Positions 6,157-36,243 of a stretch of DNA of 64,000 bases are shown here, piece by piece. The stretch is from Polymyxa betae A26-41 (Eukaryota; Protista; Endomyxa: Phytomyxea): contig RBZT01000729.1 of NCBI GenBank assembly GCA_003693705.1, positions 1 to 64,000 of the forward strand. The letters are read 5' to 3'. Every line of letters begins with the position of its first letter. Positions within the stretch are counted from its first letter, which is position 1. The translations under genes and the position numbers were made by a program. Under the pieces are notes generated by a model. That model ran no database searches and was not told where the DNA came from. It saw nothing but the letters and a program-made list of their open reading frames with translations.

Positions 6157-7752
6157 TTAAAGAGACAGGCTTTCTGTATTCGATAGGATATTATCGAATT
6201 CGGGATTATACTTCCGGTCTTTATCGAAGGCGTCTCCGTCGCAATCCGCCCTGTTCATAAACGCGGTGTCCTTGCAGAGATCATGGAATAGAGTACGGAC
6301 GGCGGCTGCTTTGAGATCGAGGTCCGAGGTGAAGCTTGAATGGCCAAAATCGATCCGTCTAAGGCCTTCGCCTTTGTGCTCTGTAACAGATTAGCAAAAC
6401 AAATAACGAAGTTTGCAAAACCAAGGACCTGAAGGCCGACGAGGACATTCAGTAAAAAAGATCGTAGCCAAACGGTTTTCTTCCGGCATAAACCGATCCA
6501 GAGCAGGTAGCAAATCGCTCTTGGGGTCATCTGTTTGTAATGTAGAAAAGTACAAGATGAAAGCGCCTTTCGGAACACAGCCAGATGTCTCATCAACCTA
6601 AATATAGAAGTGTCAGTAAAGACTCCACAGGAAGGCTGCGAGCACCATCTGATACCTGGAGCACTTTGATTGCATTTTTGAACACGCCAGGTGGGATCAC
6701 TAAGAATGATAAAGGATCTGAACACTCAATTGGTTTGCTGCAAACACATACACAACGAGACAATTTGTTTTTGCCATCATTATGCGCATCATCATCGGAA
6801 GGTTCCCCATTTCTGACGAACACATCACAGGTGATACGCTGTGAAGTTGAAAGCAAAATGGAGTCATCTGGTTCCAGCGATGCTGAGGTTCGTAAAAGAT
6901 ACGTCGTGCCAAAAACCGCAGCAAAACGGGCGAAAGCTTGAGGGAAATCGCCAGTGCCATACACAGGATATAGCAGTGCACCGATATCAAATCTGCCAAG
7001 CGAATTGACAAACTTTTTCAAAGCCTGCATTCCAGAAGAGGTTGAGATATCTGGCGAATCAGACAGGCACAGCGAATAGATGATGATATCCTTCGCTATC
7101 GGCGAGAGCTGTAGTTCATCAAGGTATTCAATAAATGGCCTATGCTCATACAGTTCCAGCTGCTTTACGTCCAGCGCATTGCTGGGAGCGTCATTCAACC
7201 TGTCATCGCTTAACACTAGGTGCATTAACTTCATTAAGCGACGTTTGTCAGGTCGAGTTAGATACGGGCACTGGAAGATAGCTGGTTTCGATATTGGGAC
7301 TTGAGCGATTTGATCATTAATGACAATCAAATACGAATTGATAGCTCGAAAAGTCAAATAATTGTGGGTACCGCTTCGAATCATGTCTTCAACAAGGTCG
7401 GAACGGGCATAAAGCAAACCTGGTTGCAAATCGATCAAAAATCTCGAACTAAGCTGATCTCCGCCAAGAACCGAGAAATGCTCGTAATGACGCAAGGCTT
7501 CAACAGCTTGGGCCCAAGGGAGCGTAGCATGATCATCACCATAATAATCGTTCGGATCTACATTCAACACTTTCTTCCCAGCACATGCCAGAGTCCTGAT
7601 TTGGTGGTTAAGCCAACTTGAACATCGCTCTGTACAACTCTGTACCCAGCCAGCAGGCAGTTTTCGAAGCCGGTTCCACAGATGACCACATCGAAGTAGT
7701 CCTGATCGAGGCGATTCTCGGTATCCAAGCAATTGGGTCCTTCTACAGTCAT
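6157..7752 (-). CDS. Rab escort protein (REP/CHM; GDI superfamily)
   Basis: FDVVICGTGFENCLLAG, GKKVLNVDPNDYYG, FLIDLQPGLLYARSDLV, YPVYGTGDFPQAFARFAAVFGTTYLL (REP-type rather than GDI-type). Confidence 0.85.
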
Positions 7753-7822
7753 GAAGCTGAAGGATCCTTGCAGGTACCACGATAGAAGCAAGCGGCAATT
7801 TGCATCTGCGAGATCCGAACAG

Positions 7823-7843
7823 AAACCCTAATCCCTGAAACCC
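7823..7843 (+). promoter_or_regulatory. Telo-box-like motif AAACCCTAA with degenerate follow-on repeats in the divergent promoter of REP and the GTPase
   Basis: aaaccctaatccctgaaacccc about 70 bp upstream of the REP ATG; function is inferred. Confidence 0.35.
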
Positions 7844-8213
7844 CAGTTGCCGAGTTCAGACTGGCCAATGGCATTTCTAATGATGGGAGCAATGGAAGGA
7901 TTATGACAAGGCATGAAACAGAATCTTAAATTGAGATGATTTCACTATCACATTTTTGGCAGCCAGAATGATCAAGCTCATCATGGATTCTACAGAACGA
8001 AGAAACACCGCTTTCTTATAGAAAGGTTATATTCTGTTCCTGAATGATATTCGGATACATTGAAACGACACACCCATCTGCCATGATTCCGGTGCAGCTC
8101 CATTCATGATGTTTCTTGACCCAGCACAGGTCTCAATCAAATCCATCTGTCGAATATCACCGCTATCCGGATTCCGACCTGTTCCACTCCAGATTTAGCA
8201 TTCTAATCCCAAA

Positions 8214-10156
8214 ATGGCTCGAGCAGCAGATTCCAATCCCGATACAAGAGTCGTCGAAGACATTGTCGCCCATATTCATTCGCTATATGCCAATGAAAAT
8301 CTGGGACTGCTCCCCATGTCGAAGACATTAGGCATCGCGATCGAGGCACCGCGCTCGAAGGTCACAGCCATGCTTGTTGGCAACCATTCAGCTGGCAAGA
8401 GCTCTTTTATAAATTGGTAAACATGATCGCTGTTCTGTTGCATTTTTGCTGACCATTCCATTCCTCAGGTATATTGGTGAATATGTTCAGGTCGGCTTCG
8501 AAGAAAGGTTTGTTTAAAAGCAGTACTGACAGTTAGCTTTAGCTGGAAAGTGCTGCCATGGAGACAAACTCGTTCACCTTCGTCTCATTTGGCAAGAAAC
8601 GCGACACCTTCCGAGTATGCTGCTGCTGCGTTTTGCTGCCACGATGCTGATCGACGATTTTCAGGGCCGGGCTACAATCAAGCACAAACCATGGCTGACC
8701 GAGATCGAATCCTTCCCAGGCGCTGTCGACAACCTGGCCACACAGATCTCCTGCTCCCGGCATAACATGTTTGCTATGTGCGACTTTATAGACACGCCTG
8801 GGCTTACGGATGGCTCTCTCAAATATCCATATCCAGGTTGACTCTATTATCATCTATCACCTCTATAGCTAACTGTGTGCCCTTATTTAGGTTCGTCGCG
8901 GTATCGTCTATTGCCTCTTGGTAGCTAAATCTTCATAGTCAACAACATCCTGGAATGGCTAGGAAAGAAATCCGACTTGATTTTCGTGTTCTTCGATCCT
9001 CATGGCCAGGCCTTGTGTGCTCGAACGTAAGCGCCTGGTCTTGATTGGAATCTGGTTTTAATCTTTAACACAGCATGGATGTTGTCAATCGCCTAAACCA
9101 GACTTGTAAGCCCAAAACGCATTACTTCTTAACAAAAGCAGATCAGGTTATAATCTGAACATGTCTCCCGATGCATTATTACTGATGGATTCAATAATAG
9201 ATTCCTTCCGAGAAGGAGCGCTCTAAAGTGATATTGCAGGTGGCCCAATCGCTGAGCCATGCTCAAGCACGTCCCGTCCTCAGCGCCCCAGATCCGGATT
9301 CGAACCGAGATTCGGAGACGTGGCTGGGGGAGCACGCCCTCAGGTACAAGCGTCGTGGCTATATGGTCAATCGACTCAGTTTGACGTAGGGTTCGACCCA
9401 TCTTCATCCCTGATAAGGTCGGCGACCGCCCCGATCTGGATTTCAACCGCATCGATGAAGTGCAGCGGATGATTTCGGATGCTGTCAACCAGAACGTGCA
9501 GAACCATATTGAGCGTCTCGAGAATGATAGCAAGACGCTGTTAGCACCAATCGTCGAACAACTGACCAGGTCCGAATTCTTGTTTATCGTCCTGTCTGTT
9601 TCGTTGAATTTCGGTTCAGGTTTGAGAAGCGGCAGAAAATCAATCGCTTTATTGACGGTATTCGAGCTATTCTGCTGCTGCTGGCTTGGCTGATTCCTCT
9701 CACCATCTTGACTGTCATATTCTATCAACATCATCATGCCATCATTCCAGAGTAAGTGTAAACAAACATTAAACAAACTCTTCATGCTGAAATTTTTGAT
9801 AGGGAAATGCTGAATGAGCACTGGTTCATGAAGGTGATCGGTCTATGTCGAGTGGTTCATGATTTTGTCACCTCGCTGATGGACGAGATTGTCGGCAATG
9901 ATCGTTGGCGATTCGCCGCCCAGATCGGCGTTGTGTTTCTGTTCTGTGTCCTGACAGCGGCCGTCTTCAATCGCCTTCGTCTGACAAACTTATCATCCAC
10001 ACAGGCCAAGCAGTTATACAGTTGGCGGGCTCAGCTCGATCTCGTTATCAAAGGTCGGATCTTCTACAGACGCCGTTATCGTAGTAATTTTTGTTGTCTT
10101 CAGACGAGGTGCCGCTACAATGGAAACGATTTTTTTCAGAGTCTGTTTACGAATAG
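8214..10156 (+). CDS. EHD/dynamin-superfamily P-loop GTPase with C-terminal transmembrane segments, multi-exon
   Basis: G1 MLVGNHSAGKSSFINWY; G3 FIDTPGLTDG; DLIFVFFDP; G4 FLTKAD; hydrophobic C-terminal segments. Confidence 0.8.
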
Positions 10157-10515
10157 GTTACTGTTAATAAACAACATCGAGCTGTCATGGAAATGTCTTC
10201 ATCAAAATAGTGGCGAGATCTTAATGATGCTCGGCATTAGTTCTGCAACGGACTCTCCATTAGACTTTGAAATCATCATTGAAGGCTTAACTCAAGAGCA
10301 GTTAGAAATGTATGTTAAGCAGGTCACAAACATGCACGACAGAGAAGAGAAGCAATGGAAATGTTGAATGCTGTGATTCAAATAAGCGCAATCCGTGAAG
10401 CTGACAATTACCCGCCACATTATCGCTTAGAAGTTACTGCCAGAAGTAGTTGTGCTCCAGGCGCTAGAGCCATCGCGGGAGACATCGGGCCCTTTCATGG
10501 CTTGCCAGTACTGAT

Positions 10516-13500: not shown

Positions 13501-16500
13501 TATGGCACCGCCGTCTGCAATTTCGCACCTGTACTGACTCAGTCCAGGTTCCGGAACATTGGCGGAGGCACATTCGAGCGGCTCTATAAAGAATTCTTGC
13601 CGGTCATGCCCGAACTCTTGACGGGGTTGCTGACGGTACAATCATGGCTGTTGATCGTACTGGTCGGGCCCGGTCGTCTGAAACCCGATCCGTCAGGTAA
13701 TTCGATCGGAATGCGCGCGCGATGTTCGAGATTTCGCTGTGGAACTCGGCCTGACCGTACCGGCCCGCCTGTCGTCGCTGCTTCCGTTCATTCCGAATTT
13801 GATCGAGATTGTTGCGTTTGCGCTGAAAAGCCGTACCGATAGCATCATCAAACTTGGTTCGTTGCACAATCCTGGAAGATTGCTCAGCTGAATGTGTTTG
13901 TGCAGGTCTTCGAACGTTGGAGTTCTGGATTGATAATCTTGAGCTTGACTTTCTGTATCCACTCATTGAAAAGTGAGCTGTAGCATTTTATTGGTTTTCA
14001 GTTTAATTGCCCTTTTTTCACCTGGAAGATAATTCCGATTCTGGTTGCGACGTTGATTTTTCTCTTTATGGCCCAAATGTGACCTGTTCTCAGAAATCTG
14101 AAAAACATCATGTTGGGTCTGTGTGCGTTAATCAACCAGCACACGACGCAATTTGGTCCGGCTGCTGCTCGTGTTCTCGGCGGTCTTGCTGGACGCAGCC
14201 GTCACTTCCTCGTCGATGGCCTTCCCGACTGTCTCACATACGGGTATCTGATTTTGCTTGTGTTGCCTGTCGCGGTCTGAACCAGCTGTCTAGAAGCGGG
14301 TGTACTGGCCCCCGGGTCTTCATCTCGGATGGCGTCACTATCACCATTCGGCACGCTGTTCGGCGTCTGTATCGAATCTTGTTTGAAGAGGAGAAGCAGC
14401 CGCTGCCTGTCGTGACGTTCGCCGCCAACATGGCTGAACATATCATCTATGCACTTTTAGCTTGTCATCAACAAGCTCGAAGACGTCCCATGTATGGTTT
14501 GCTTAGAAGACGTCCTCTCACCTATCTCATGCAATCGTGTAGTCATGAGTCGGATATGCTGATTGACGCCATCGGATATTCGCCAGATAATGGCGGTGCG
14601 TCACGGGTCGAAGAAGAGCGAATCTTTTCGCAACTGGTCACCTGCATGATCGCCGCCTCGGCTCGATACAAAATCGCATCGGTGCAGACATGCCTGATCG
14701 GTCTTGATAAGCACTTTGCTATTTTACTAGGAGATCTGGTACTAATTGGTTTCATTGCCTTTCTTTGTGTTTTTTCATCAGAAATTTGGGACCTTTTTTG
14801 TCGCAAATCATATAATGAAAGCGTTGTATCAGGCTCAATCGAATCAGCGGTTTGATTCGCTCGTCTTCCTCGACGTTCTACTCAACTGTGTTCGCTCTCA
14901 CGATACGGCTGTCTCTTCAGTCGCCTGGCAACATCTGACATCGTTCCTGGACGATCTCTTCGACGTCGCCGGTGCCGACGCTCTGTGTCGGTCGCATAAC
15001 GCCATCCAACACATCTTTTTGCAGGCCGGTCATTTCTGCCATTACGCAGGCCGACATGTATGGGGACCTGTATTGTGCTATCACAAATCGAACTGAGTTT
15101 TCTCGCTTAGGCGCGCCTCGCTGGAGCTCGTGTCATTGCGGAACTCGCCACTCGATTACCGGCTCCATGGCTTCACTCCAATCAGGTATCGATGTCGGTC
15201 GCCCTCTGTTGAACGCCGCCTCAATCATCTTCTAGAACGATCTGATCCGCTCGCTGCTGTTCGCATTGCGCGACTCGAAATCCGACATCGATCTGGAAAT
15301 TCGTCGGGTGACCACCCGAACCTTAGAACAGGTTCGATCAGGTTTTATCGACGATTGCTTTTGCTGATAATCGACGCAGACGATTCGAACATGCTCTCAA
15401 ATCGATTCCGATCTCACCTTGCTCGTCAACAATCTCGCCTCCGAACTCACTTCAGCGACCAGCGCCGTTCGCGAATGCATTCAGAATCTGCTCGAACTGG
15501 GTACGTCATCGACACCGTACTGACCCAGCTCGCTTCGTGCGCATTAACTTGCCTTGGTTGTGTGTAGTGTCGCAATTGTGCCACACGTCCATATGCGACT
15601 TGCTGAAACCGTTCCGAACGAATCTGTTGACTCCGGTCCTGTCACGTCGTTTGCATACGCTGGCGCCATCTACACGCATCGGTTACATCTCGGCCACGGC
15701 ATATTCGTTATCGATTGAGCCGCCTCTGCTCGATGTACTTCTGGAAATCGTTTTTGGTCTCTCGTTGATATGAGTTAGGTATCGTCCGAATTCTTCGAGT
15801 TGTTGATGTCCCTGGCGACTGAAATTCGACACGATGAATCATCGGCGCTGTATTGTTTTTGATCGTAATCATTGCTATGGTTGGTATCATTAATCTGGGT
15901 GTAGGGCCGGGAATCCATCTGTGAGTCCGTCATCAAGCCATTCGGGACGATCACGTCTCCTGATGCTGCAACGTGTCGAATCCATCAAATTGTTATCGGC
16001 CGCACTGAAATCGCCTCAACTACAGCGTCATGCTACGGTTGCCACACCGGTACCATTATTCTTTATTCATTGTCAATTCCATTTTGCGATTTTGTAGACT
16101 GTTCTACTTTTGCGTTTTTAATCGTCGGATTTTGTCGTTTTTTTCATCGCCCTTGTGAATGGTCGTATATTTATTAGGTGACACCGGATCCATCGCTGTT
16201 GATTGATTCAGTAATGTCTCCATCACCTGCCATTATCCCGGATGTTCTCACACCCGGACCCGGACCCGAAGCGGATGCCGTTGTCACCAACCTCCGCAAC
16301 CGAATCATCGCCGCCCTTTTCGAATCGCTGCGCTCTCCTCACGAAGAGGTGACCTTTTTCCTCTGCCTGTTGCTCGCCTCTCCTTATTGACCCACATCTC
16401 GCAGGTAGCACAAGCTGCTGATAGAGGGATGACGCTGGCGTGCGAACAGGAACGCCCTCCAAAGGCGCTGCTACAGTCATGTTTGCGTCCGGTTCTCTCG

Positions 16501-19500
16501 AATTTCGCCGAATATCAGAAACTATCGGTCCCTCTGCTCACCATGCTCTCACGTCTCCTCTCCGTCCTCTCCAAATGTTTCAACGTCACGCTGGCCCAGA
16601 AACTCTACGAACACCTGGAGAACTTCACGCGGGTCAGTTCGGCGCGCCGCCCGCCCTCCCACATCACTCAATCGTTCATGCAGATGGTTGCAACGATTGC
16701 TCGCGAGATTCAGCCCCCGCTGGTCCCGGATCCCGCCAATCCTGCTGGTGCGCAATCAACAGGTCGTACTGGCTCGGCTCTGTTGGGTTGTGCAGATTTG
16801 AGTAACGTTTCGTTGCAGGGGCGTCGGTGAACGGCGCACAACGATTTGGTCAGTGGAATGAGGTATTGATACCGGCCGCCATACTCGATACGTTCCATCT
16901 GTTGCCAAAACTGCCTCCCGCCTTTCTGCAGAAGTTAGTTGCGGCCGTTCTGCAACTCGAGACCATCTTTCCGATCTTACAGGTAACATTACATTTGATA
17001 CAGAGATGATTCATTGAGTATATTGATGATAGGTGTATGGTGGATGCGGTCATGGTCCTGGATCGCCTTATCGTCTACCTCTGGTCCGCTTCTTGAATCA
17101 TCCCGATTATTGTAATGACGCCGCCTTCTTCTTTGTCCAACCCGCCAATCTCTGTAATCCGGGACTATCACGTTTATTCAAAGATTGCCTCAAGATGGGA
17201 CCCGACTCGGAACGTCTCTGCAAGGCAGTTCGCGATCTGTTACCGCAAGTGCTTTGTAACGCTTTCGTGGTTCGACTCACTTCTGTATCGTTATTTTTGC
17301 AACGTTAACCATTTCCTTCAGGATCGTGACGATTCTGCTGAATCGGCCGAGCTGTGCTTCCAGACGATCTCCATCATTGATATTCTCAGTCAGGAATTAT
17401 TTCTGCCTCGATGTTGGTTGTTCTGATAAGCGATATTCAGCATCGTATGGAGTGAGCGGATGTGAGGTGGCACTGGACCGTCTCGTGCCAAAATGGGACG
17501 AACGGATGAGCGCAGCTCTCACAACTGATGCCGATCAGGACGTCGTTGTCGCCGATATCAGCTCGATCATCAATGGCCGTGAGACCCTCATGCTGGCCCA
17601 TATCTTCATTCGAGTACGCCCATCCGTTTTATACCGTCCCCTTAATTTTGTCCAAGCCTCAATTCAGTTTTTCCAATTTTACATCTTCTGTTTTTTGTTG
17701 TAGATTTGGACAATGTTCCGTATGTTTTATCTGATGGGGCGTCTATGCAGTTCTGTAAGGCTCATCCATTGAGTATCTCGGTCTATCTCTGGAAGCTGCT
17801 CTCCTTCCTGATAGTTCGACATCTCTCCGATCCAACCTTCCTGTTCGATTTCATCACTCGCGATGTTGTCCATGGCGATCAGGCCGAGATGGTCCTGCTC
17901 ACATTCCTGAATCAACTATCGCGCGTACCGGCTGCGTACGTCATCAAATCCAAGGCCCTCGACCTTGTCATCACTCCCGTCTTCCAGCGGTACGACAGGT
18001 CGTGCTGCTCCAGGATACTGCCGTACTGATCCCGATTTTTAGATTGGTCTCTGAACATCGTGATCTGACTCAGTACATTCGTATTGCGTCCAATGTTCTC
18101 CCACCGATTCTGACCGGGCAGAGCTCGCTACCAGATGTCTTCAATACTGCTCTGTCTAACTTAACCATTCACCTCATATTGCCATCCAGGTCGGCTCTCA
18201 ATACTTGGTTATCTCTCTTGAAATTCCGTTCATGTTGGACATCGATGATTCTTTTATTTCGAACATCTTTCCACACATTGTATTCATGAGAATCATTCTC
18301 ATTGATTGTTGTATGGCAGAAGCGATCCGCTGTTTCAGGCGAGTCTGCTGCAGTACATCTGGGCCAACACCCGCCACGAGAACACACAGGTCCAGCTAAA
18401 TGCATTCGTTGCTCTGGGCCGCTTCCTGAAGTCCCTCCCGCAAGGCACGTCTGCATCGCTCGATACGATCCGCCTGACACTGTTCGTCGCGATACTCGGC
18501 ATGCACCAGCCTTCGGTAATACTAGCCACTTACCGCCAACGGTACTCGAATAAACCATTGTAGGCACGATCGCATACGCACTTGGCGCTGAAATCGATCC
18601 TGCCTGGATTGACGGCCGCCAAGGCACCAGTCAGTACGATTCCCGAGTTCATCCGCTGGACGCGACGCGCACTCAGCACCGATTCGACGTCGGATTTTAG
18701 CTCGATCCGGCACACCGTTCGGATTGTCTGCACATTCCGGGAACATTTTGAACCTTTCCGGTCAGATTTTGTTCTCTCTTTTTATTCCTTTCAACCATTT
18801 GTAATCGGCATCTAATTGAGACTTATTTAGGTCGATGTTAATTCCGATCATGATTCCCGTACTGGACCGAATCGTGTTACCAGCTGCCTCCGATTCTGGC
18901 GAATCTATGCAAGTATTGAGTTAACTGAAACCAGGCTGTGAACACAATTCTGAATGTTTGATGTACAGCTGTCGTTAGATTGTGTCGCGACCATCATGTC
19001 GTGGGCACAAATGACAGATTCAACGACAAACACCATCGGCGACGATCGCGATCCGTTTGTGCCACCCAGTCTCGGAGACCTGTCGTTGCTTCCGGCGTTG
19101 CTTCAGATCGCTCCCGATTCGCCTTCCAACAAACGATGCCGGGTCTCGGTAGCATCGGAGTCGCTGATGGCTATCAGTCCGACTTCAGAACGTCATTACT
19201 CGCTGGAACCGATCGGAGGTGTTCTCGTTTCTATCATCATGAACACCGCCGATTCACCTTCCCTCAAATTTACACACTCGAGGGCACAGGTTCGATCATT
19301 TTTCCACACTTTCACAACATTTAATTTGCCGTTTTCACAGTACCGGTTTAAAACTTGCTAATTTTTGTTTGTGATGCTATTATGATCGTTTTTTGGTGTT
19401 GTAAAAATGTTGCTTTCTTTGGTCTGGGTTTAGGGTTTGTTCCACTTTCTGACCAATATAATGAACAGGATCAGCTTCGTCAATTCGCAGTCCAGCACGG

Positions 19501-22500
19501 CTCCGTGCTTGTCCGTCTTGATACTCTTGGGGCTATTGCCTCCACCGCCAGCATCACCGATCAGCAGCGCCTCAGCGGTCTGAATCTGATCGCCGATCTA
19601 GCGTCTTCGTCACCGGCCTCATGCCGTCAGGGCGCTGCTCATATCGTCCAGCTGATTCGTAGCTGTGCACAATCCGAGAACGCATCGGTACGACCAGCGC
19701 CCGCTGCGATACGTTACACTCATTCGAGGTCGTACAGGTCCGTCTCGCGATGTCGTCGGCGCTCACTGTGGCGTTGCCGTGCTTGATCGATAACAGCCAC
19801 GACTTCATGCAGATCGTCGAGGTCGGTTTGGCCCAGACCAATTATCAGCTGCATACGGCCGTTGAGATACTGCGATGTCTGGTGGCGGTAAAGCCGTCCT
19901 TAATCCAGGTACGATATTCTTAGGGTTTGAGAGTTCCAATGCAGACACTGCTCTTAGAACCAGATCGATGCGCTGTCGAAAGCGGTCGTCGTCCTGGCCC
20001 GGGACTGTCTTTCGCGCCAGGGTGAACAACGAGCTCCGGGATCCGGCCCGTATCGTGACGTTGTATCGGCGATGTTGACGTCGTTGCGACTACTGGCGGG
20101 GATCGCCCATCTTCCACCTGAACCTTATAGAGGATTGTTACAGACTATCACATTACTGACAGATAAGAGCACAGATCTGGAAGTTATTCAGGGGATCATC
20201 TCCGTTATCAACAGGTATCAGATTTTCTGTTATTTTGAATCCCAAGTAATGTTACTTCATTTTCTGGCTTAAATCTTGAATCGATTTCTCAATGGTTATA
20301 TGGCTTGCTTTTGGGCTTCATTGTAGTGACGATTGTTGGGTTGGCAACAGCTGGGTGCAAAATACACTCCATTTCGAATCAACTCGGAAAGATATTGAGG
20401 CCGTGATCGGTCGTCTGATTCGTTTCGTTACGAGCTCGACCAGGACACCCGCCTTCGAGTCCTCCTTCTTCCGTCTTCTGATGGCGTGCTCAGATGGTGG
20501 TCTATTGGGCTCCATGTCATTGATACCACCAATGTTACTCGGACTGGCTTCTACGGACGCCGCTCTTCGTGTCGAGTTTGTGTCGCGCATTCAACGTTAC
20601 ATGCTCATGAACAGTGCTGGTTCGTTACCTTATGTTACGTTACACTGAACTGATTGCGTTTCCAAGCCGAGGTCGATCAGAAATATTCGCTGTTGAAGTT
20701 CGTGTTCGGTGATGATAACTGGGAGCTCTGCTGTACAACGGTCAGTGCTGTTGGCTCTCCTACAAACTTTACAACCCTAATACCCTACCAGAGTCCGGGC
20801 CTCTGGATGGTGGCCGCCCTTCAGCTGATTCTATCAATGGGTTCCTTCAACGGAACCGCCCTCATCGATGACGCTGATAATGCTTCCTTTCCATTCCCAC
20901 AGAACGCTACCACTTCCGTCCTGCACGCCCATCGCCCCTTCATCGACGCCATCACCAACATTCGCGTATGTATCATAGAATATGGTGGCCAGTACGATGT
21001 ATCACAGGTCGCTGACGATGCCTGCGTAGCCGAAGGACGTTCTGGCACGCCTCTCCGACCTAATCGTACTCGATGCTGGTTCGGCCCGTTGCGTCTGGAT
21101 CGAGCTGTTCCCGCAGATCTGGGCCAGTATGCCGGAGGGGCAGCGCTCGTCGCTCCAGCCGCTTATCAACACGTTACTGTCGCGGGATTGGCATCGACCT
21201 CATCAGTCCGCTCAATCTAATCTCGTCCAGGTTCGCTTTCCCAACCGTCTTGTTTCTTACTTTTCCCTCGCTTGTAATGATGGAATCTCGGTTTGTTGGA
21301 TTTTATACATTCAATTTGTGAAGAGTTTTCAACATCAATTTGTAATGAAAGCTGGTCGATTGTTCAATTGACAGTATCATGGTCAGATTATGCTGGAAGG
21401 TTTCGTAGCATGTCGTCCAGATAATACTCCCATAGTACCGGGTGAACTTCTTGGATATCTGGGACGGACCTATAATGCCTGGTATCCAGCATTAGCATTA
21501 TTACATAGACAGACACCACAGATAGAAGCGCATGCTGCTATCGCACAAACATGCAGTCTGTTAAACGAACGTGATATCCTGGCCGGTCTCTGGTATAATA
21601 TCGCTCAGGTTAGAACCCCAAACCCTAAACCCTAACCCGTCTGATTCTTCCTAGTCGGATATCACCAAATCAGCTTTGGCTCTACAACAGTTCGGTTTAT
21701 GGCCACGAGCTCAGACGATGTTCTTCGCCGCCCTGGCGGCTATCAATGGCCATAGCTCCTCGGCACCTGATATCGGGGTCCCTCTACCTGAACAAGGTCA
21801 AGTGTCAGCATTAGAGGCGAATATGTGGGAGACAGAATGGACACATGCAGCATGGCAACTCGGACAATGGGATGCTTTATCAGCATGTGCTATGAGCCAG
21901 CACGACCTCAATACCCATGTACCAATAATCACGTTTCATGACGCCGGGTTTCCTGAATTTGTTTAGGTGGTTGCAATGTGTAAGCTCGGTAATTGGTCGG
22001 AATCGTTCGAGAGAGCGCCGTCCAATAGTGATGAATGGCTCTATAAGCTCTGTCTCTCCATCGTCAATAAAGATGATGATTTGGAGCGAACTGCAGAACG
22101 AACCATGCAGGTAATGTTTGTGCCGGTGCTGCATTGTTGGGCGACATGATTCTGACGGTACCGAGCAGGCCCTGTTGGCCAGCTGGGTCTCGTTACCATC
22201 AGTTGTATCGCAGGCGCACGTCCCGCTACTGGCTCAGTTCCACGGATTCGTTGAGGTTCAGGAGTCGAGCGCTATGCTCACAGATGTCATGCAGGCTAAA
22301 GCGCAGAATAAGCCTGTCGATCTCAGCTCATTCATCAAGATATGGAGACAAAGGTAGCTCGCTTTTTCAACAAAAAATTGCTTTTGCCGGAACTCGGCGC
22401 TGATGGTTGCGTTTCAGATTACCGAATGAATGGGAGGACTTGTCGTTCTGGATGGATCGTATCACCTGGCGTCTGAAAACGTTCGATATGATCCAGTATC

Positions 22501-25500
22501 AGATCGCCTCAACCGGTGCCCTACAGACCAACTCGAAATCCCAGATTCCATCGGTTTGTAAACGAGATTGGGTGTCGGGGGGGGGGGCGTACTGACCCAC
22601 TGTCGGTTTATTCCAGACCGATGATCGTATGTGGACGCTGCTGACGCTGTCGAAAGTGGCTCGAAAGCAGCAGCTCGGCCCGCACTGTCTTTATGCTCTA
22701 TCGCAGACCGTACAATGTAATGTCTCGCTGTTTACTGCTCTCGCTGTTCAAACGAGTTCTGTTACTGTCTCGAGCGAGAAGTTTTGAGTTTGGCGTCAAC
22801 GATTCGGTGGCCTATATACATTAACGGTTTCCACACAGATTCGGAGAATCCGATCACCATCAACGACGCATTCACTCGTTTACGCGAGCAGGTTCGTGTC
22901 TGTATGGGTACATCGATCCAATACAAAGAAGCGCTATCCCTGCTCAACTCCTTGAATATCGATTATTTCTCACCCGATCAGGTCGGTCGTTTATCTGTCC
23001 CTCGCTGTAAACTGATATCAGAGCGCAGAAAGCCGAACTGTTTCGTTTAAAAGGTGATGCATTACAACATCTGGGCCAAGGCGACGACGCCAACGCCTGC
23101 TTCTCTACCGCCTTATCCGTTTGCGAAACACATGGCAAATCATGGCTGTCATGGGCAAATTTCTGTGATCGAGGTCGCCCCTGTCTTTTTTCACATTTCT
23201 TTGTTTTGCTTTCACTCTCGCTTATCTAATTCATCGTAATATTTCTCTTCAATTTTTTTTGCTGTTATCGATCTTTATCAAGAGTTTCATCATTGACAAT
23301 TTCTTTTAGTATTCGCGATGAAGAAAGATCGTGAATGGGCGACCTGGGCGGTATCCTGTTATATGAATGCGATCGCATATGGCGAGGCGAGGGCCCGGCT
23401 TATGATCACCCGCGTCATCTGGCTCCTATCGTACGATGCCGAAGATCGATCGGTGGTGAGCGCCTTCGAACGTGCCTCGGAACAAGTCCCATTATGGACC
23501 TGGTTATTATGGCTACCACAATTATTGACCTGCCTGGCACGACCGGAAGGCGCCGCTATCAAATTAATCCTGCAACGAATCGCACGAATCTATCCGCAAG
23601 CGTTGCATTATACGGTATGATGGCCTCAGGCATCCAATTAGATTTAGCAATTTTCTTTTTCGATGTTTTCGATTTTGGCCGTTGCTAATAGTCAATTTTG
23701 TGCTGTTTTGATGTGATTTCTGACGGATGGATATTCTAGGTTCGAGCGTTTCTGTTTGAAAAACGCGAACAGCATGCGGTCAGCACTAAAGATGGTTCAA
23801 GCCCAGATAAAGCGTCGTCGGACACATCGTCGCTGGTGCTGGTCGAATCGATCGTGCTGGCGATGCGCGAGAACCATCCGTCTCTGGTGACCGAGATCGA
23901 GAATATGCTCGAAGAGATCAATCTGCGATTTCAACCGACACCGCACGAGGAGCTGCTGGCCTCAGTTCATTCACTCTATCAGAAATGCTTCAAACAGGTT
24001 CGACGTTGAGCGTTATCGTTCAAATGTTCTGATTCTTGAAACCAGGCCGTCATGGTATCGGGATTATCCGGACCGATCCCGGAACCGTTGGCCAGCGTAC
24101 TGGCCCGCCTGTCGCGGTCGTTCTTCAACAGTCCGAAACACGTCTCAAACCCGGTCCAGAGCGAGTTCGTCCGCCGATACAAGCAGGCGTTCGAGGCAGA
24201 TTTTAGCTCAACGGGCCGCATAACGCTCGCCGTCCTCTTGGGACGTCTGTCCAAATGGAAGAGCCACCTCGAATTTCACGTAATCGACTTTTGATTGATC
24301 TTCGAACTTGGTTGCAGTTTTCTGCAAAATTGTTCGAATTAGTTTTCTCAGAAGAGATGTTGAAACTGGTTCTAGGTGACACAACGGCGTCGAATGTCGC
24401 TTCGGCTGGAATCACTCAGCCCGTATTTGATGCGATTCCAAACGTACGAAGTTGAGGTCCCGGGCCAGTATCTCATCGATAAAGAGCCATCGACCGATCA
24501 GGTTTGTATTTCTATGAACCCGTTCCAACACGGTCTGATCTACTCGTAGAATGTCCTGATTGTGCGATTTGAACCATCTGTGGCCATAGTTCGCCTATCT
24601 CATACGTATCTGTATCGACGTTTATCCTTGTTAGGGACCGATGGTGTCACCTATCATTTCTTGGTTCAGGTCGGTGACAAAATAGCTCCCATTTTAATGC
24701 AGGTTTCTGAATCTCGGATTTTCAGTACTCTATCGCGCATATCAATAGAAGCGACGAGCGCATGATGCAACTCTATACGATCATCAATCGATTGATGTCT
24801 CGATATAAAGAAACTCGACGACGGAATCTAATGTTCGCTGTGCCTCTGGTCGTACCACTAACACATCGTCTACGTCTGATGGAAACACACGACGATGTCA
24901 CCAGTTTTGAGAAGGTTCTGCATTTTAATGACAATCTGCTTCCGAACAATGTATGATTTTGTTGGCAGGTTTATGAGCAAAGTTGCACAGCGCAAGGCAT
25001 CTCTCCCGACGCCCCATTTTCTGTTGTTATCGAAGAACTTAGTCGTGTTACGGAACTGACGCCTGCTAATATTCGAGCAAGTCGGCTGAGTTCGTTTAAA
25101 CGTATCATGGGCTCGGTTATTCCCAAAACCTTGCTATCAGACTATTTCCATACCGTTATTGCAGATCAAGAATTGCTATGGGTATCCCGCTCATACTGTT
25201 AAATCCGTTCTGTTTGACCTCTGTTTTAGGCATTTAGAAAACAGTTTGCTCAGCAAATAGGACTGAATTGTTTCCTGTCATATATTTTGTCTATTGGCGA
25301 TAGATCGTTGCATAAAATCTTGCTGCAACAGCAGGATGGCCAAATCACTTTCAATGATTTCTACCCATCCTATAATGTTCACAATATGATCGAATCCAGC
25401 GACAATGTCCCATTTAGGTTGACTCCCAATATCTCCACTTTCATCGGTGAGCTTCGCTTGAGACATTTTGTATTCGTTTTTGACAGATTATATAGGCGAT

Positions 25501-25914
25501 TATCTGATCCATGGCATTACCGCTGCAACATTGGTTTCGTTATCAGCCTGCCTTCTCAAACATCAAGATGTGCTGAAGAATTATTTATACCTTTTTGTTC
25601 GCGATGATTTGCTGTCTTGGCATGCCACCAAAAAGACGGTACAAACGGATTCTGCCCAGCGAGCCCTCGAGTATGACGTTCGCTTGCAAATTTCCTCGAA
25701 TACTTTACAGGTTTGACCGGTGCCACTGCTTTGCATTCTTGCTTATCACTGTGAACAGATTCTTCGAGGCATTCAATCTTTTATGGCGACTTCAAAATCA
25801 GAAGGAGAAGAAGGTCATGAACCAATCAATGCTAAGGTAGCCCAACTGATCGAGCAAGCCATGTCCGAAGACAATCTCAGTAATCAGCTGCCTACATGGC
25901 ATCCTTGGTTCTAA
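10516..25914 (+). CDS. TRA1: TRRAP/Tra1 PIKK pseudokinase (SAGA/NuA4 scaffold), many introns
   Basis: RRELLINMRQ, LRPLAASILIDLV, LFGLKTVVWSIK, CLRPVLSNFAEYQKLSVPLL, RLPNEWEDLSFW, WTWLLWLPQLL, YPQALHYTVR, degenerate kinase motif IGDRSLHKIL, VPFRLTPNI and FATC end LPTWHPWF*. Confidence 0.93.
21614..21638 (+). repeat. Short telomere-like array (AAACCCT)n inside a TRRAP intron
   Basis: aaccccaaaccctaaaccctaaccc; related motifs at 13331, 19426, 19920 and 20773. Confidence 0.75.
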
Positions 25915-25994
25915 TTATTTATTTGATAAATCACTGTCAATATGTATCTCTATAAATCATTTAATCAAATGGTTATAGATGTTGTGAGTGCATT

Positions 25995-28405
25995 TCAACG
26001 AAGTAATGTGTTCGATCTGGCACTCCATATATCTGTCCATTCTTTTCCCGGACCTCTCTTAGCTGTAGAGAAAGGGGCTGGTGAGTAGTCTGACCTCAGC
26101 CCGAAGCGATGACGAGAATTCGTCCTTCTTGGATGATGACGAGGAACAGAAGATGATCTCTGCCCTTCTTCATCCCGTCCAGATTCATAAACAGCAATTA
26201 GCTCCTATATTATCGTTTTGGAAGCCATTTTTATGTAATTACAACTGTTTCGATACCTTCAAGGACCGACCACCAGGTGCTGCGACACCATTAGATATCG
26301 AATGAGCTAAACTTTGTGCAACAGAATATATTGAGCTAACAGATCCTGTAGGGCTTGAAGGTCTTGCATGAGCGATATCCGAATCAAGATCTCGCAGTAA
26401 GTCATCCCGAATTAACTTCTCCTTCTTAAAAACGTCATCGTCCCAAGCGTTGATTGCCTTAGGCTTCTCTATTTCTGTATCTTCATTGTCTGCCTTGAAA
26501 TAAGGTTTCGCCACAACTGAAAGAGAACCTTCAACTGCAATGTCCGGGTGTACAGATTTGCTGCGGTTAGTGCCCTGGAGTGGTAATTAGTCATATAATT
26601 ACCAGATATAACAGTTGCCACCGTATGATTGGAAGAATGATGAAGTTCACCTCTGTATCGTACATGACGCGACCAGGCTTCTAAGAACTGTATTGCACGT
26701 CAATTTTCCCTCCTCTGCGAATTTGTTCTGTGGCAGTACCTCAACAGGATCAAGTTCCGTCTGCTGTGTTTTTAAGAAATCCTCCAGCCAGTTGATTTTC
26801 AGCATTTGTTGGTTCAAGTCCACATTCTCTGCAAGAATAATGCTGATCTAACAACACGGTTAAGTCAACGCGAGTTAAGGAGTCCCTGTACCTTCTTGTC
26901 TGTCATCTGCTTTAACGTGTTGATAGCTGCTTCAGCTTTTCTTAAAATTTCTGCCTCTACTTCTTTAGCGTTCAAGTTTACAGCCTGAAGCCTCTTATTA
27001 AGTTTGTCTTTGCGTTCGATTATGGACGCCTGGGTTGAGTTTGAAATCATGGATTTGCCGTCAAGTTCAGAGCAATGAAACCTTTCTTTCAAGTAGGAAA
27101 GGGTCGTCTTTACTTGAAGCCATAATTGCTAGCTCATAAGCTTCTTTAATGACAGTTAGCTTGTGAGTGCTTGCTTCGCCAGAACAATGGCTTCCGACCA
27201 TTTTGCAGCTGATACAAACCGGTACCTGTAGGACTTTAAACTATTTCAAGCATCGAATGAATACGCAAACCTGGCATAAATGGCAGTAATATGTGAGCAT
27301 CTGTTCAGGATGATGACTGCACTTTCCGAAAGTAGTTATCGGTTTCTGGAAACAGTTTAGTTTTTCTTTTAACACATTCACTGATGGAGATATTACTTCA
27401 GCAATCGGGATTCTTTTATGCTTCGTTAGAAGTCGATTTCCTCCATGCATGGATCTGTCGCAGTGCTCACAGAGACTATTTTACAAAATCAGAGAATCGC
27501 CAAGAAATAAATCTCGGGCGCACCTGGCATTATCAGCCTGGCAATAGACAACCGCCCGCGATGATTCACAAGCATTGCAAAGTTCAGTCTATGACGTTGA
27601 TATAAGAACGACCTCAACAGATTGACCCATTTTACATTTCTGCCTTTTGATTGCTTGATTTCGCAAGATACAAAGTAAGTTGGAAGTATCAAATCAGAGT
27701 CTTTTAGCAGAAATTTCTGTTGATAAACGGATTCGGCAGTTGGCAGCTCTAAAACAATCAGCAAATCATGGTATGAGACAAGCTGTGATACCTTGTTCGG
27801 ACTTTGTATTAATCTTATCTGGATGAAGATAGATACAATCGTATCCATCGGGAACTACAAGTTCCGAATCGTGATGTGCAGCCTCATGTGCATCCATGAC
27901 ATAGGGAACCCCGATTGCCACCTGCCCATATGAAATTAAGCAGTGACATTTTGTATAGTTGATCGCAGAACCTGACAGAGGATAAATTGCTTCACATTTG
28001 AGTTGGTATAGTGTGGCAGATCGATCGAGCCATGATTGAACACAAAACCTTCATTCCCAATAGCAAACCCTTGATTAACCACACTGGATAATGAATTCTT
28101 TCCATCAAGATCGTCGACATTGACCCAGCATTCAATTACACAAAGTCCCCTGGTGCGCTTCTGGAACCGAAGATTCAAATGTGGATTGCTGACAGCCTTA
28201 ATATCCTCAATCTCTGCCCGATTGGCTGTTCCATGCAGGCACATTTGCAGAATGTATTCGACTCTAGCACGCTCCTAATATCATTAACAACCATAATCAA
28301 TCCGGCCACGAAAACCGCCACCTCACTATCAGCCGGTAGACCAGCTTGCTTGGCGAGATCGGTGGCGACCTCGCGATGACCGTGAGAGCCTTGTAATGAC
28401 TCCAT
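25995..28405 (-). CDS. B-box zinc-finger/coiled-coil protein with a possible N-terminal PARP-like domain, multi-exon
   Basis: CSHHPEQMLTYYCHLCQ|VPVCISCKMVGSH..H is a B-box2; a coiled coil follows; N-terminal IEDIKAVSNPHLNLRFQKR. Confidence 0.7.
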
Positions 28406-33735: not shown

Positions 33736-36243
33736 ATGAATACTTTGGCTTTGGTTATCATCACTGTTTCCGCTCTGCTGTACGAAACTGATGCTGATAT
33801 CTATATGGTATGCTAAAGTTGTCTCAAGAGGCTCGTAATCTAATTCTGGTACAGCAAAATCCTCGAGGAAGCAATGACCGAAATCGAGAGCAGAATCAGA
33901 ATCGTAACAATGCTAATCGCCTATTTAACTCCCAGAATAACGCTAAGGGAGGATATGCTTGGGCTGGTAACCCTACTTTGCAAGGCACTCCTGATCCACT
34001 CATGTTCTATGCAAAATCGAAACTTCGCCTGGAATGGACTGTCCAGCATGGATGTGGCCCAAATGCTAACGCTGAATGCGATTTCATTATCCAGTATTTG
34101 GCTGTAGATGCAGCATCAAATGCTCTCAGAGATGGATATCCTACCGGACCCCTAACTACTCGAGCAGCTGGCTATCAGTACGCAACGTTCACCGATTCGA
34201 AACAGAATGCCGACGGAACGAACGAATTCCCGCTTCCACCTTCGTTTCCAGGAGCATCCGGAAACCAATTCAATGGCAACGACGCAGACTTCGGGACCTC
34301 AGTGAGTGCCGACCGCCTAGCCAGTAACCTCGACACGTTCTGCAACGGCGGCGCTGTCGGCAACCATAAAGGCATTGAATTCGGATCTCACGAATCGTGT
34401 GCGAGCTATCGTCGTTGTACGACAACGACCCGGAACAAAGGCCTATATACTGCCGATCGGGCTCTGGGAGGCGATAGTGCTCGATTCACACGACAGAATA
34501 ACAATGGGCAACGTTACGGCCTGGAGTGCCCTGAAGAGAGAGGTAACATAACATTTTGTTTCGTATTTATATACCTATCGAGGTAACATTACGAGTATTT
34601 CATAACACTAAAGCTTTGCTATTAACAGACTACTATCCATATTGGCGCCCAAGCGAATGGCGAGATATTGCAATCTTGACATCAAACTCCTCCTGGTGCG
34701 CATATGCCCAGCAAGAAAGCCAGAATCTCAAGTCGAAGTTCTATTGTCAGATGCCGACCGGGTCGACAGCCCTGGCTCCCATCACGAAAACTGGCTGTGA
34801 TAAAGTGCAGGGTACCTGGACTGAAGTCACATCTTGGGGTTTAACAGCGCCTGATTGTGTTATCCATGCAACCTCTCGTGATAATCATCTTGGGAATACA
34901 GCAGTTGATAATTTCGGTGGCCATGTTCAGCCAACAACAGCTCATTATGATTGGACTATTCCAGAATCATTAAAAGGCAAACGTGTATGTCCTAATACTC
35001 AACTAATCGCCTGTGTAAATCAGATGTTGTTAGGTGGTGTTGAGATTCCGATACAATATGTCTGCATCGACGTATGAATCCCATTCTGATTATATGCCGA
35101 ATCCAGGACGAATGACCGATGCGTCGCTGAACTGCCAAGCCGGGCAGACCGGTTTAAATGGTGGCGCTCAATGTGGAAATGATCTGATGAGGGACGGCCC
35201 TGTTGCCCTTTATAACAATCCTTACGTAAAGCTCTGGAGCGGTCAGGACGATGTAAGATTTCCTCTGAAATGGCTTCCTTTTTCGTCGAAGTGACATTCC
35301 GGAGGTGTACCTAGCCCTGGCGGTTAATACGGCGCAAGTCGGGCGAACGTTTCAGGATAGATCGTTCGTTTTCCAGGTCCGAAGTGAATCCGCTAGCTGT
35401 CCTGGACAGGTGTATAACCTCAACATTCGAGGAAAACGAGGAAATATCGTGCAAACATATCGTAACAGCGTAATCTGATTATGAAATACCACACTAATTC
35501 GTCATTACCAGCTGCAACTGAGTATGATTTTGTGCCGAGTATGTTAGAAATGGGAACCCAGGATTGCATTGATTTTCAGTGGGCTGGTTCCGATTTTAAT
35601 GCACAAAATCAAGACGGTGGGTTTTAATGCTGGTTTTGCCCGTAAAATCTCAGAATTTGTGGATATAGGTGAAGGCGCAGATCAGACCGATCGTCATAAC
35701 TTCGTAGAAGTTCGTTCTTCAAGTTTAGACCCGAATAGCCCCGACTATTTCCATCTGATTCCACAGGCCGGCCCACGAGTGACAATGTTTTCGCAAGATG
35801 ACGCTAAGATGCTCGCCTATGCCAATCAAACGCTTAGTGCATGTGCCGCTTTGACCGCTGATGACAACAACAACGATGATCGTGCAGATAACTGTGCTAA
35901 ATTAAACGCTGCCCCGAACGTCTATCGTCATCCGACGTTGTTGACATTCTCGTCTGGGGCTTATGCGGCAATATCCACCAGGAACAATAACTTCTCGAAC
36001 CGTCAACAAAAGTTCCATCTGATCGTATCAAGTTCTGTCAACACGGGCATCTATATTGCCATTGGTGTTGTCAGCGCTATTGCTGTTGCTGGAGTTGCTG
36101 CTTGTTGCGTTGCCCGCCGTAATCCCAAGAGCAATTTTGGACGAGCTGTCAATGCAATTTTCATGGGCCGCCGAGCTTTCAAAGACACTTATGTTGATGT
36201 TGAAGCACGTCCCCTACCTGGAGAAACTCAAGCTCAGCCATAA
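33736..36243 (+). CDS. DD3-3-like secreted/type I membrane protein
   Basis: Signal peptide; DIYM|[86 protein letters not shown]; C-terminal TM helix. Confidence 0.85.

What the first reader, a model, noticed from the sequence alone, without database searches (positions are those of the whole stretch)
8837..8938. Two complete short introns back-to-back with a zero-nucleotide exon (candidate recursive splicing in a tiny-intron genome)
Seen in the sequence: in the EHD/dynamin-like gene the 102-nt intron splits cleanly into 8837-8890 (54 nt; GTTGAC...gctaac...tttAG) and 8891-8938 (48 nt; GTTCGT...gctaaa...catAG), joined at AG|GT. Each half has the window's typical intron length and its own branch-point-like motif. 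Removing both gives YPYP-V-NNILEWLGKKSDLIFVFFDP in frame. Keeping either half gives an in-frame stop, and the only alternative microexon (10 nt) shifts the frame. Established: recursive splicing at AG|GT ratchet points is known mainly from very long animal introns. Inference: a spliceosome tuned to ~50-nt introns may remove double-length introns in two steps, or this may be an intron-gain or exon-loss intermediate.
Basis: partly seen in the sequence, partly recalled or inferred. Interest (0 to 1): 0.75.

Follow-up and report, generated by a model that had tools for sequence, protein, structure and literature searches.

The report
Twin short introns, no exon between
In a GTPase gene of a clubroot-pathogen relative, a 102-base intron consists of two similar intron-sized halves that likely arose by duplication; RNA shows the second half cut out on its own as well as the whole removed, so the cell likely removes it in two cuts, second half first, a pattern known so far from longer introns of animals and fungi.

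Summary
Observation confirmed. 8837-8938 splits at AG|GT into 54- and 48-nt units with ordinary splice scores; only removal of all 102 nt restores a protein colinear with 120 of 120 homologues. The host is a plasmodiophorid-like protist. RNA contigs show the 102-nt junction in 2 of 4 runs, the downstream unit removed alone (8890^8939) in 2 of 4, and the upstream unit alone in 0 of 4; all direct evidence comes from one study. The units resemble each other more than 99% of intron pairs in the window, which points to tandem duplication, not exon loss. Best reading: two cuts, 3' unit first; the second cut is inferred. Against a need for two cuts: 125- and 156-nt introns without an internal AG|GT are spliced here. 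Rivals: a dead-end alternative donor, or RNAs starting inside unit 1 beside a spliced antisense RNA. Zero-nucleotide exons are published for Drosophila, Cryptococcus (375 nt) and S. pombe (336 nt). This scan noted similar abutting mini-introns in other genomes, mostly without RNA. New variant of a known kind.

The parts
8214..10120 (+). Host gene (end approximate): 462-aa P-loop GTPase of the dynamin/EHD-like superfamily, ten intron positions; 270 of 458 aligned residues identical to a Plasmodiophora brassicae G-domain protein (P0001)
   Evidence: P0001 matches Pfam Dynamin_N and MMR_HSR1 above cut-off. Six downstream introns are RNA-supported; the first three (8417-8468, 8491-8542, 8615-8664) rest on homology only.
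8665..8836 (+). Exon 4, ends in CAG; holds the DTPG motif
   Evidence: 8700-8836 is covered by RNA contigs
8837..8890 (+). Unit 1, 54 nt: donor GTTGAC, branch motif GCTAAC at 8868-8873, acceptor TAG; a stop codon follows in frame at once if it is kept
   Evidence: Retained in the 8890^8939 contigs of X2 and X4; never seen removed alone (0 of 4 runs)
8888..8896 (+). TAG|GTTCGT joint, the zero-nucleotide exon; use as donor shown, use as acceptor inferred
   Evidence: table 5 (skip 48, GT..AG)
8891..8938 (+). Unit 2, 48 nt: donor GTTCGT, branch-like GCTAAA at 8924-8929, acceptor TAG; spliced on its own
   Evidence: X2 (side 27 letters) and X4 (side 31 letters, own contig, depth 8.47)
8848..8872 (+). 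Core of unit 1 that aligns to 8902-8928 of unit 2 (21 identical of 27 columns, 2 gaps); period 54-56 nt
8939..9026 (+). Exon 5, encodes the conserved DLIFVFFDP motif
8391..8808 (-). Spliced antisense RNA over exons 1-4 (ends approximate), with minus-strand introns 8647-8699 (4 of 4 runs) and 8526-8577 (1 of 4); no long ORF
   Evidence: (CT..AC joints); no Rfam match at E<=1

Best explanation
The 102-nt intron is two abutting intron-sized units that likely arose by tandem duplication of one ancestral intron of about 50 nt; RNA shows the downstream 48-nt unit spliced out from the internal donor, and the remaining 54-nt unit is likely then removed as an ordinary intron, giving a two-cut, 3'-unit-first route to the mature mRNA. 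Shown: the internal donor is used, and the full 102-nt junction exists. Inferred: (1) a duplication that included the exon-4 end or slipped on the AG at both intron ends would place an AG directly before a second donor without needing exact breakpoints; (2) a spliceosome that pairs the nearest sites picks the internal donor, which leaves a stop-containing unit 1, so selection would keep unit 1's own branch motif and AG; (3) unit 1 is removed more slowly than the gene's other introns, which is why the half-spliced RNA is visible. Direct one-cut removal probably runs alongside.
For: Junction 8890^8939 in X2 and X4, junction 8836^8939 in X1 and X4, both in X4. After unit 2 is gone, unit 1 scores as an average intron: donor 47th, acceptor 44th, branch 36th percentile, length 54 against a median of 50. 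A strict CTRAY lies before 56 of 224 predicted acceptors, but before only 4 of 75 donors preceded by AG and 1 of 50 internal AGs of long introns; unit 1 has it. A both-strand scan of 64 kb for YAG|GT with that motif and two 42-64-nt halves gives 2 sites, this one and an ordinary predicted acceptor (thresholds set after seeing the target). Unit similarity: global score 39, reached by 125 of 17,020 pairs of short introns and by 0 of 142 neighbouring pairs; local score 23, reached by 24 of 17,020 (both counts include two overlapping duplicates); shuffles that keep the splice signals reach it in 110 and 194 of 20,000; the best self-split of the 102 nt falls exactly at 54, scoring 0.76 per base against at most 0.59 for 23 long introns. 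Length 102 lies in a gap of the predicted distribution: 198 of 224 up to 69 nt, 3 at 70-111, 23 at 112-188. In the depth bins that hold five downstream introns (9027-9802), no retained form is implied in any of 4 runs.
Against: The second cut is not observed: the final junction is the same by any route, and contigs hold no lariats. Both direct junction types come from one study (P1). In X2 the contig starts at 8861, and in X4 at about 8832 by depth arithmetic, so no contig links the half-spliced form to exon 4 by 31 letters. Introns of 125 and 156 nt are removed without an internal AG|GT, so two cuts are not forced by length. AG precedes 33% of donors here, so the joint's AG may be donor context only, and unit 1's branch motif may be a leftover of the duplication. 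Tandem Repeats Finder reports nothing at score 30, the first 11 nt of the units are poorly alike, and unit 1 is low in complexity, so the duplication is probable, not certain. The length gap comes from a self-trained gene model that matched RNA in 4 of 5 checked stretches and over-called introns in the fifth.
Confidence: 0.55

Rival explanations
1. One-cut removal of 102 nt is the productive route; the internal site is only a competing alternative donor that yields a stop-containing dead-end RNA, and unit 1's 3' signals are unused leftovers of the duplication.
For: Longer introns are spliced without an internal AG|GT. Use of the internal acceptor is seen in 0 of 4 runs. AG before a donor is common (33%). 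The half-spliced form is common enough to form contigs, unlike retained forms of five downstream introns, which suits a stable product more than a fleeting intermediate.
Against: Once unit 2 is gone, unit 1 is an average intron by every score. Its branch motif is the better of the two and is rare before ordinary donors (4 of 75), although the units have diverged elsewhere.
Confidence: 0.2
2. A promoter in or near unit 1 fires both ways: it makes the spliced antisense RNA leftwards and a shorter sense RNA rightwards, whose first intron is the 48-nt unit. The 8890^8939 RNAs would then not be intermediates of the full mRNA.
For: The antisense RNA does not cover 8892-8935 in X4, so it likely starts left of there. 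X2 has no cover from 8809 to 8860 between contigs of depth 15.6 and 25.3. X4's half-spliced contig begins at about 8832.
Against: The tool states that contigs cannot show starts and that holes prove nothing. X4's contig still holds the whole of unit 1 plus 4-5 exon letters. A short RNA would lose the GTPase motifs of exons 1-4. This reading does not explain unit 1's branch motif and AG.
Confidence: 0.12
3. Classical 5'-first recursive splicing is the main productive route: unit 1 goes first and regenerates a stronger donor, so the intermediate is too short-lived to assemble; the 8890^8939 form is a side route.
For: The internal acceptor scores at the 98th percentile in genomic context, and the regenerated donor rises from the 46th to the 73rd percentile. 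Co-transcriptional order would favour it (established knowledge).
Against: 8836^8891 is in 0 of 4 runs while the opposite intermediate is in 2 of 4; unit 2's acceptor is weak (9th percentile), which would slow the second cut and make the intermediate visible.
Confidence: 0.1
4. The 8890^8939 joint is a DNA allele that lacks unit 2 (collapse of the tandem pair on the shared TAG), read as unspliced RNA.
For: Three letters fit either side of the joint. No DNA run was laid. An earlier, unchecked note reports copy-number differences of such units between DNA samples in another genome.
Against: The skipped part has GT..AG ends and normal intron length; unit 1 would still have to be retained far more than the gene's other introns.
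Confidence: 0.03

Closest known systems
Recursive splicing at a zero-nucleotide exon in Cryptococcus neoformans BOT1 (bioRxiv 10.1101/224170; passages read)
   Same: One coding-gene intron made of two introns joined at a zero-nucleotide pivot in a short-intron microbe; partial and final junctions both seen.
   Different: 375 nt = 210 + 165 there, 102 = 54 + 48 here. There, junctions and branches of both events were mapped; here only the downstream event is seen. The passages read do not discuss an origin by duplication.
Zero-length exon in Schizosaccharomyces pombe SPNCRNA.445 (bioRxiv 10.1101/226894; passages read)
   Same: A 3' splice site directly next to a 5' splice site inside a short intron.
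   Different: 336-nt intron of a snoRNA host RNA, conserved among Schizosaccharomyces; here a coding gene, a third of the length, conservation untested.
Drosophila ratchet points (bioRxiv 10.1101/006163; passages read)
   Same: AG|GT joint with no exon.
   Different: Introns of 11,341-132,736 nt with segments of 2,596 nt or more, detected as upstream-exon-to-ratchet junctions; that junction was not seen here.
3' recursive splicing as defined for dystrophin (PMC4829307; passages read)
   Same: [quoted passage not shown]
   Different: Human introns averaging 28 kb; here the remaining unit carries its own acceptor already in the genome and does not depend on the first cut to create it.
Fungal stwintrons and stwintronisation (PMC7138796; parts 1-2 of 5 and passages read)
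   Same: Short U2 introns removed in consecutive reactions under intron definition; donor duplication proposed as origin; a one-step alternative exists in Lipomyces starkeyi.
   Different: Stwintron units are nested, the inner one interrupting or lying next to the outer one's donor, branch or acceptor element; here the units are head to tail and neither interrupts the other.

Membership tests
Zero-nucleotide-exon recursive splicing | Acceptor directly followed by donor (AG|GT) inside a larger intron | tested here: met
   8890/8891
Zero-nucleotide-exon recursive splicing | Whole intron absent from the mature mRNA, no exon included | tested here: met
   Junction 8836^8939 in X1 and X4; 120 of 120 homologues colinear
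Zero-nucleotide-exon recursive splicing | Internal site used as donor | tested here: met
   Junction 8890^8939 in X2 and X4
Zero-nucleotide-exon recursive splicing | Internal site used as acceptor (junction 8836^8891, the classical ratchet intermediate) | tested here: inconclusive
   0 of 4 runs; contigs drop rare forms; X5's rows were cut
Zero-nucleotide-exon recursive splicing | Two lariats, one per segment | not testable with these tools
   Only assembled contigs were offered
Zero-nucleotide-exon recursive splicing | Conservation of the internal site in relatives | tested here: inconclusive
   The metagenome scan gave 61 loci with best segments at 32-65% identity, none close enough to compare the intron; no eukaryote genomes on hand
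Stwintron (strict sense) | Inner intron interrupts the donor, branch or acceptor element of the outer intron, so that its removal is needed first | tested here: not met
   Both units have uninterrupted donor, branch-like and acceptor elements in the genome
Lost or skipped microexon | Residues present in homologues are missing at the junction, or an in-frame microexon exists | tested here: not met
   120 of 120 homologues have 21 residues across the 21-residue span; 4- and 10-nt microexons shift the frame
Tandem duplication of an intron | The two units are more alike than unrelated introns, in register | tested here: met
   Top 0.7% (global) and 0.14% (local) of 17,020 pairs; best self-split at 54; below Tandem Repeats Finder's threshold
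Tandem duplication of an intron | A single-unit intron at the same position in relatives | not testable with these tools
   No relative's gene DNA was obtained

The most novel reading that the evidence does not exclude
A whole short intron was duplicated head to tail, and both copies are now kept as working introns that are removed mostly in reverse order, with slow removal of the upstream copy acting as a throttle on the mRNA, perhaps tied to the antisense RNA that starts beside it. This would be recursive splicing with 54- and 48-nt segments in a rhizarian, caught with its origin still readable, and a model for the abutting mini-intron arrays noted in other compact genomes.
Probability: 0.3. 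Interest if true: 0.7.

Novelty: new variant of a known kind. Interest (0 to 1): 0.45.

Why it matters
Published zero-nucleotide exons that I could read about lie in introns of 336 nt or more. A 54 + 48 case whose halves are still recognisable copies links two open questions: where ratchet points come from, and how tandem duplication of an intron is tolerated. It is small enough to settle with RT-PCR and lariat mapping, and it adds RNA support to a pattern that this scan has mostly seen without RNA. It remains one intron, the second cut is unproven, and the mechanism class is known.

Tried and rejected
No whole genome is held, so the genome-wide enrichment test could not be run. No listed run is on record as RNA; the five holders were of unknown kind, and the four laid proved spliced. 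The 20-kb lay showed 15 of 80 joints, none at this locus, so X5 is unread here. Absence of spliced junctions for introns 1-3 is not used as evidence: contigs show presence only, and the sense and antisense paths across 8615-8699 differ by 3 nt, which an assembler may merge (inference). Contig ends in X3, the second study, at 8836 and 8936 fit a fork between forms but show no junction; not counted. The metagenome scan gave no close relative. The RNA fold of 8827-8948 is not more stable than shuffles (z -0.91). Rfam over 7900-9300: 0 matches. Tandem Repeats Finder: 0 rows; the pair is not among the 20 of 51 repeat families shown. The first gene model fused genes and was replaced. One search used a wrong end for intron 5 (9074), so its microexon rows are void; corrected. 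A model allowing zero-length exons chose 8 zero-exon splits, this one included. Of the other 7, I read 4: in three the first half is open in frame (one encodes the kinase catalytic loop), and 34543-34628 stays a candidate. Three were not read. A nested reading of the 179-nt intron at 19290-19468 (51 nt + 5 nt + 123 nt) does not keep the frame and was dropped. Paper searches: 'recursive splicing' with 'Rhizaria' gave 1 listing, on an unrelated gene family; five of six terms on whole-intron tandem duplication gave 0; searches listed no abutting pair of about 50-nt introns by title or abstract start. These are word searches of an open-access library only. Supplements of the bioRxiv papers were not seen and may list shorter cases.

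Full report
What was checked. The finding says that the 102-nt intron at 8837-8938 is two complete short introns joined at AG|GT. The sequence shows a 54-nt unit (donor GTTGAC, GCTAAC at 8868, TAG at 8888-8890) and a 48-nt unit (donor GTTCGT, GCTAAA at 8924, TAG at 8936-8938). Removing all 102 nt gives a 462-aa protein. Removing either unit alone, or including a 4- or 10-nt microexon, ends in a premature stop after 157-200 residues.

The gene and the organism. Exon 4 searched alone finds one protein, from Plasmodiophora brassicae, at 88% identity; over the whole length 270 of 458 aligned residues are identical. The window is therefore from a plasmodiophorid-like protist other than P. brassicae (inference); no genome is held. 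P0001 matches Pfam Dynamin_N and MMR_HSR1 above cut-off and has 850 relatives among the 7,996 candidates scored, the listed ones at 33-46% identity, many from animals. All 120 fetched homologues have exactly 21 residues across the 21-residue span around the junction, so no exon is missing. P. brassicae is reported to have on average 4 introns per gene of 60 bp (PMC4471660, passage).

RNA evidence. Five runs from two studies hold about half of the sampled words. Four were laid on 7800-10300; all records were at least 99% alike and skip GT..AG introns, so they are RNA assemblies. The full junction 8836^8939 is in X1 and X4. The junction 8890^8939, which removes unit 2 and keeps unit 1, is in X2 (27 letters on the short side) and X4 (31 letters, a contig of its own at depth 8.47). 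The junction 8836^8891 is in none of the four. X1, X2 and X4 belong to one study; X3, from the second, shows neither junction. By depth arithmetic X4's half-spliced contig covers about 56 letters ending at 8887, so it starts near 8832 and holds all of unit 1; X2's starts at 8861. In the six bins that hold five downstream introns, the implied cover equals the spliced length in all four runs, so retention is specific to unit 1 among those. Contigs show presence, not absence, level or start. X5 was laid, but only 15 of 80 joints were shown, none here.

Is the split more than chance? I trained a two-strand gene model on the window and scored sites against its 224 introns, 24 of them RNA-supported. 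Both units score within the normal range, unit 2's acceptor being weak (9th percentile). In 20,000 simulated 102-nt introns a central AG|GT with passable sites arises in 1.8-2.8%, and one as good as observed in 0.05-0.14%. AG precedes 33% of donors, so the AG alone says little. The branch motif says more: strict CTRAY precedes 56 of 224 acceptors, 4 of 75 AG-preceded donors and 1 of 50 internal AGs of long introns. A window-wide scan with post hoc thresholds finds 2 sites, the target and one ordinary acceptor.

The halves resemble each other. 8848-8872 aligns to 8902-8928 with 21 identities in 27 columns, and five of the seven letters before each donor match. The global score is reached by 125 of 17,020 pairs of short introns, the local score by 24, and by 0 of 142 neighbouring pairs (global). 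Shuffles that keep GTT, GCTAA and TAG reach it in 110 and 194 of 20,000. The best self-split of the intron is at exactly 54 nt and exceeds that of all 23 long introns. Tandem Repeats Finder does not call it. I put duplication at about three in four (judgement). A duplication spanning the end of exon 4 and most of the intron, or slippage between the AGs at both intron ends, would create AG|GT by itself; the data cannot tell these apart.

Is two-step removal needed? No. A 156-nt intron (21231-21386) is a direct junction in 4 of 4 runs and a 125-nt intron (23615-23739) separates adjacent pieces of an X1 contig. Contig arithmetic matches the model's intron sums in 4 of 5 stretches, which supports further introns of 122-179 nt; in the fifth the model over-calls (580 against 447). 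Only 1 of 23 long introns has an internal AG|GT leaving parts of 38 nt or more. The predicted lengths are bimodal, with 198 of 224 up to 69 nt, 3 at 70-111 and 23 at 112-188. The 102-nt intron lies in the gap, but a self-trained model can deepen such a gap.

How it most likely works. Shown: the internal site acts as a donor, and the whole intron can be removed. Inferred: pairing of the nearest sites removes unit 2; what remains is an average 54-nt intron with its own branch motif and AG, and I see no reason why it would not be spliced. This gives a 3'-first two-cut route, probably beside a one-cut route (confidence 0.55). Rivals: a dead-end alternative donor (0.2); RNAs that start inside unit 1, opposite a spliced antisense RNA whose minus-strand introns at 8647-8699 and 8526-8577 appear in 4 and 1 of 4 runs (0.12); classical 5'-first ratcheting with an unseen intermediate (0.1); a one-unit DNA allele (0.03). 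These are not fully exclusive.

Comparison with what is known. Zero-nucleotide exons are described in Drosophila introns of 11 kb and more (10.1101/006163, passages), in C. neoformans BOT1, 375 = 210 + 165 nt, with both junctions and branches mapped (10.1101/224170, passages), and in a 336-nt S. pombe intron (10.1101/226894, passages). Human lariat data extend recursive splicing to smaller introns, where conventional lariats dominate below 1,000 nt (PMC10156609, passages), which favours a mixed route here too. The order seen here matches the definition of 3' recursive splicing (PMC4829307, passages). Fungal stwintrons share consecutive removal and a proposed origin by donor duplication, but are nested; that defining feature is not met (PMC7138796, parts 1-2 of 5 and passages). 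So it works like a zero-nucleotide-exon recursive intron, but membership is incomplete because acceptor use and two lariats are unshown.

Novelty and verdict. My searches listed no such case in Rhizaria and none with units of about 50 nt (open-access word searches, bioRxiv supplements not seen). Earlier notes of this scan describe abutting mini-introns in Rozella and fungi, several as tandem copies and mostly without RNA; these are unchecked AI notes and are not counted as support. The feature is real, and one of its two cuts is shown in RNA from one study. New variant of a known kind; interest 0.45.

Noticed in passing
window 8391-8808, minus strand: A spliced antisense RNA overlaps exons 1-4 of the GTPase gene; its introns 8647-8699 (4 of 4 runs) and 8526-8577 (1 of 4) lie largely on sense exons. 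No long ORF, no Rfam match. It may run towards the upstream minus-strand gene with a Pfam GDI match (ORF 6593-7855).
   Followed up: partly
window 34543-34628, plus strand: Second candidate twin: 86 nt = 40 + 46, both halves beginning GTAACAT, joined at GAG|GT; removing both keeps a frame open, removing only the second gives a stop. The middle acceptor is not YAG, and no RNA was laid there.
   Followed up: partly
whole window; e.g. 15963-25978: Predicted intron lengths are bimodal (about 50 nt and 112-188 nt, almost none at 70-111). Many long, T-rich introns lie in one large gene with a Pfam Tra1_ring match; 125 and 156 nt are RNA-supported.
   Followed up: partly
window 19290-19468: A 179-nt intron (model plus contig arithmetic) holds an intron-like 51-nt first part, 5 nt, and a 123-nt intron-like rest; no split keeps the frame. 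It shows that unit-like signals can occur in a long intron without a zero-exon joint.
   Followed up: partly
window 21609-21654: RNA-supported 46-nt intron containing about three telomere-like AAACCCT/AACCCT units from 21620.
   Followed up: no
window 9129-9842, minus strand: A 237-codon stop-free frame antisense to the 3' half of the GTPase gene, crossing its introns; no Pfam match.
   Followed up: partly
window 25755-26260: Contigs of X1, X4 and X5 run without a gap from the plus-strand Tra1-like gene into a minus-strand gene, which suggests overlapping 3' ends.
   Followed up: no
window 19530: One G>C difference in the run of the second study, X3.
   Followed up: no
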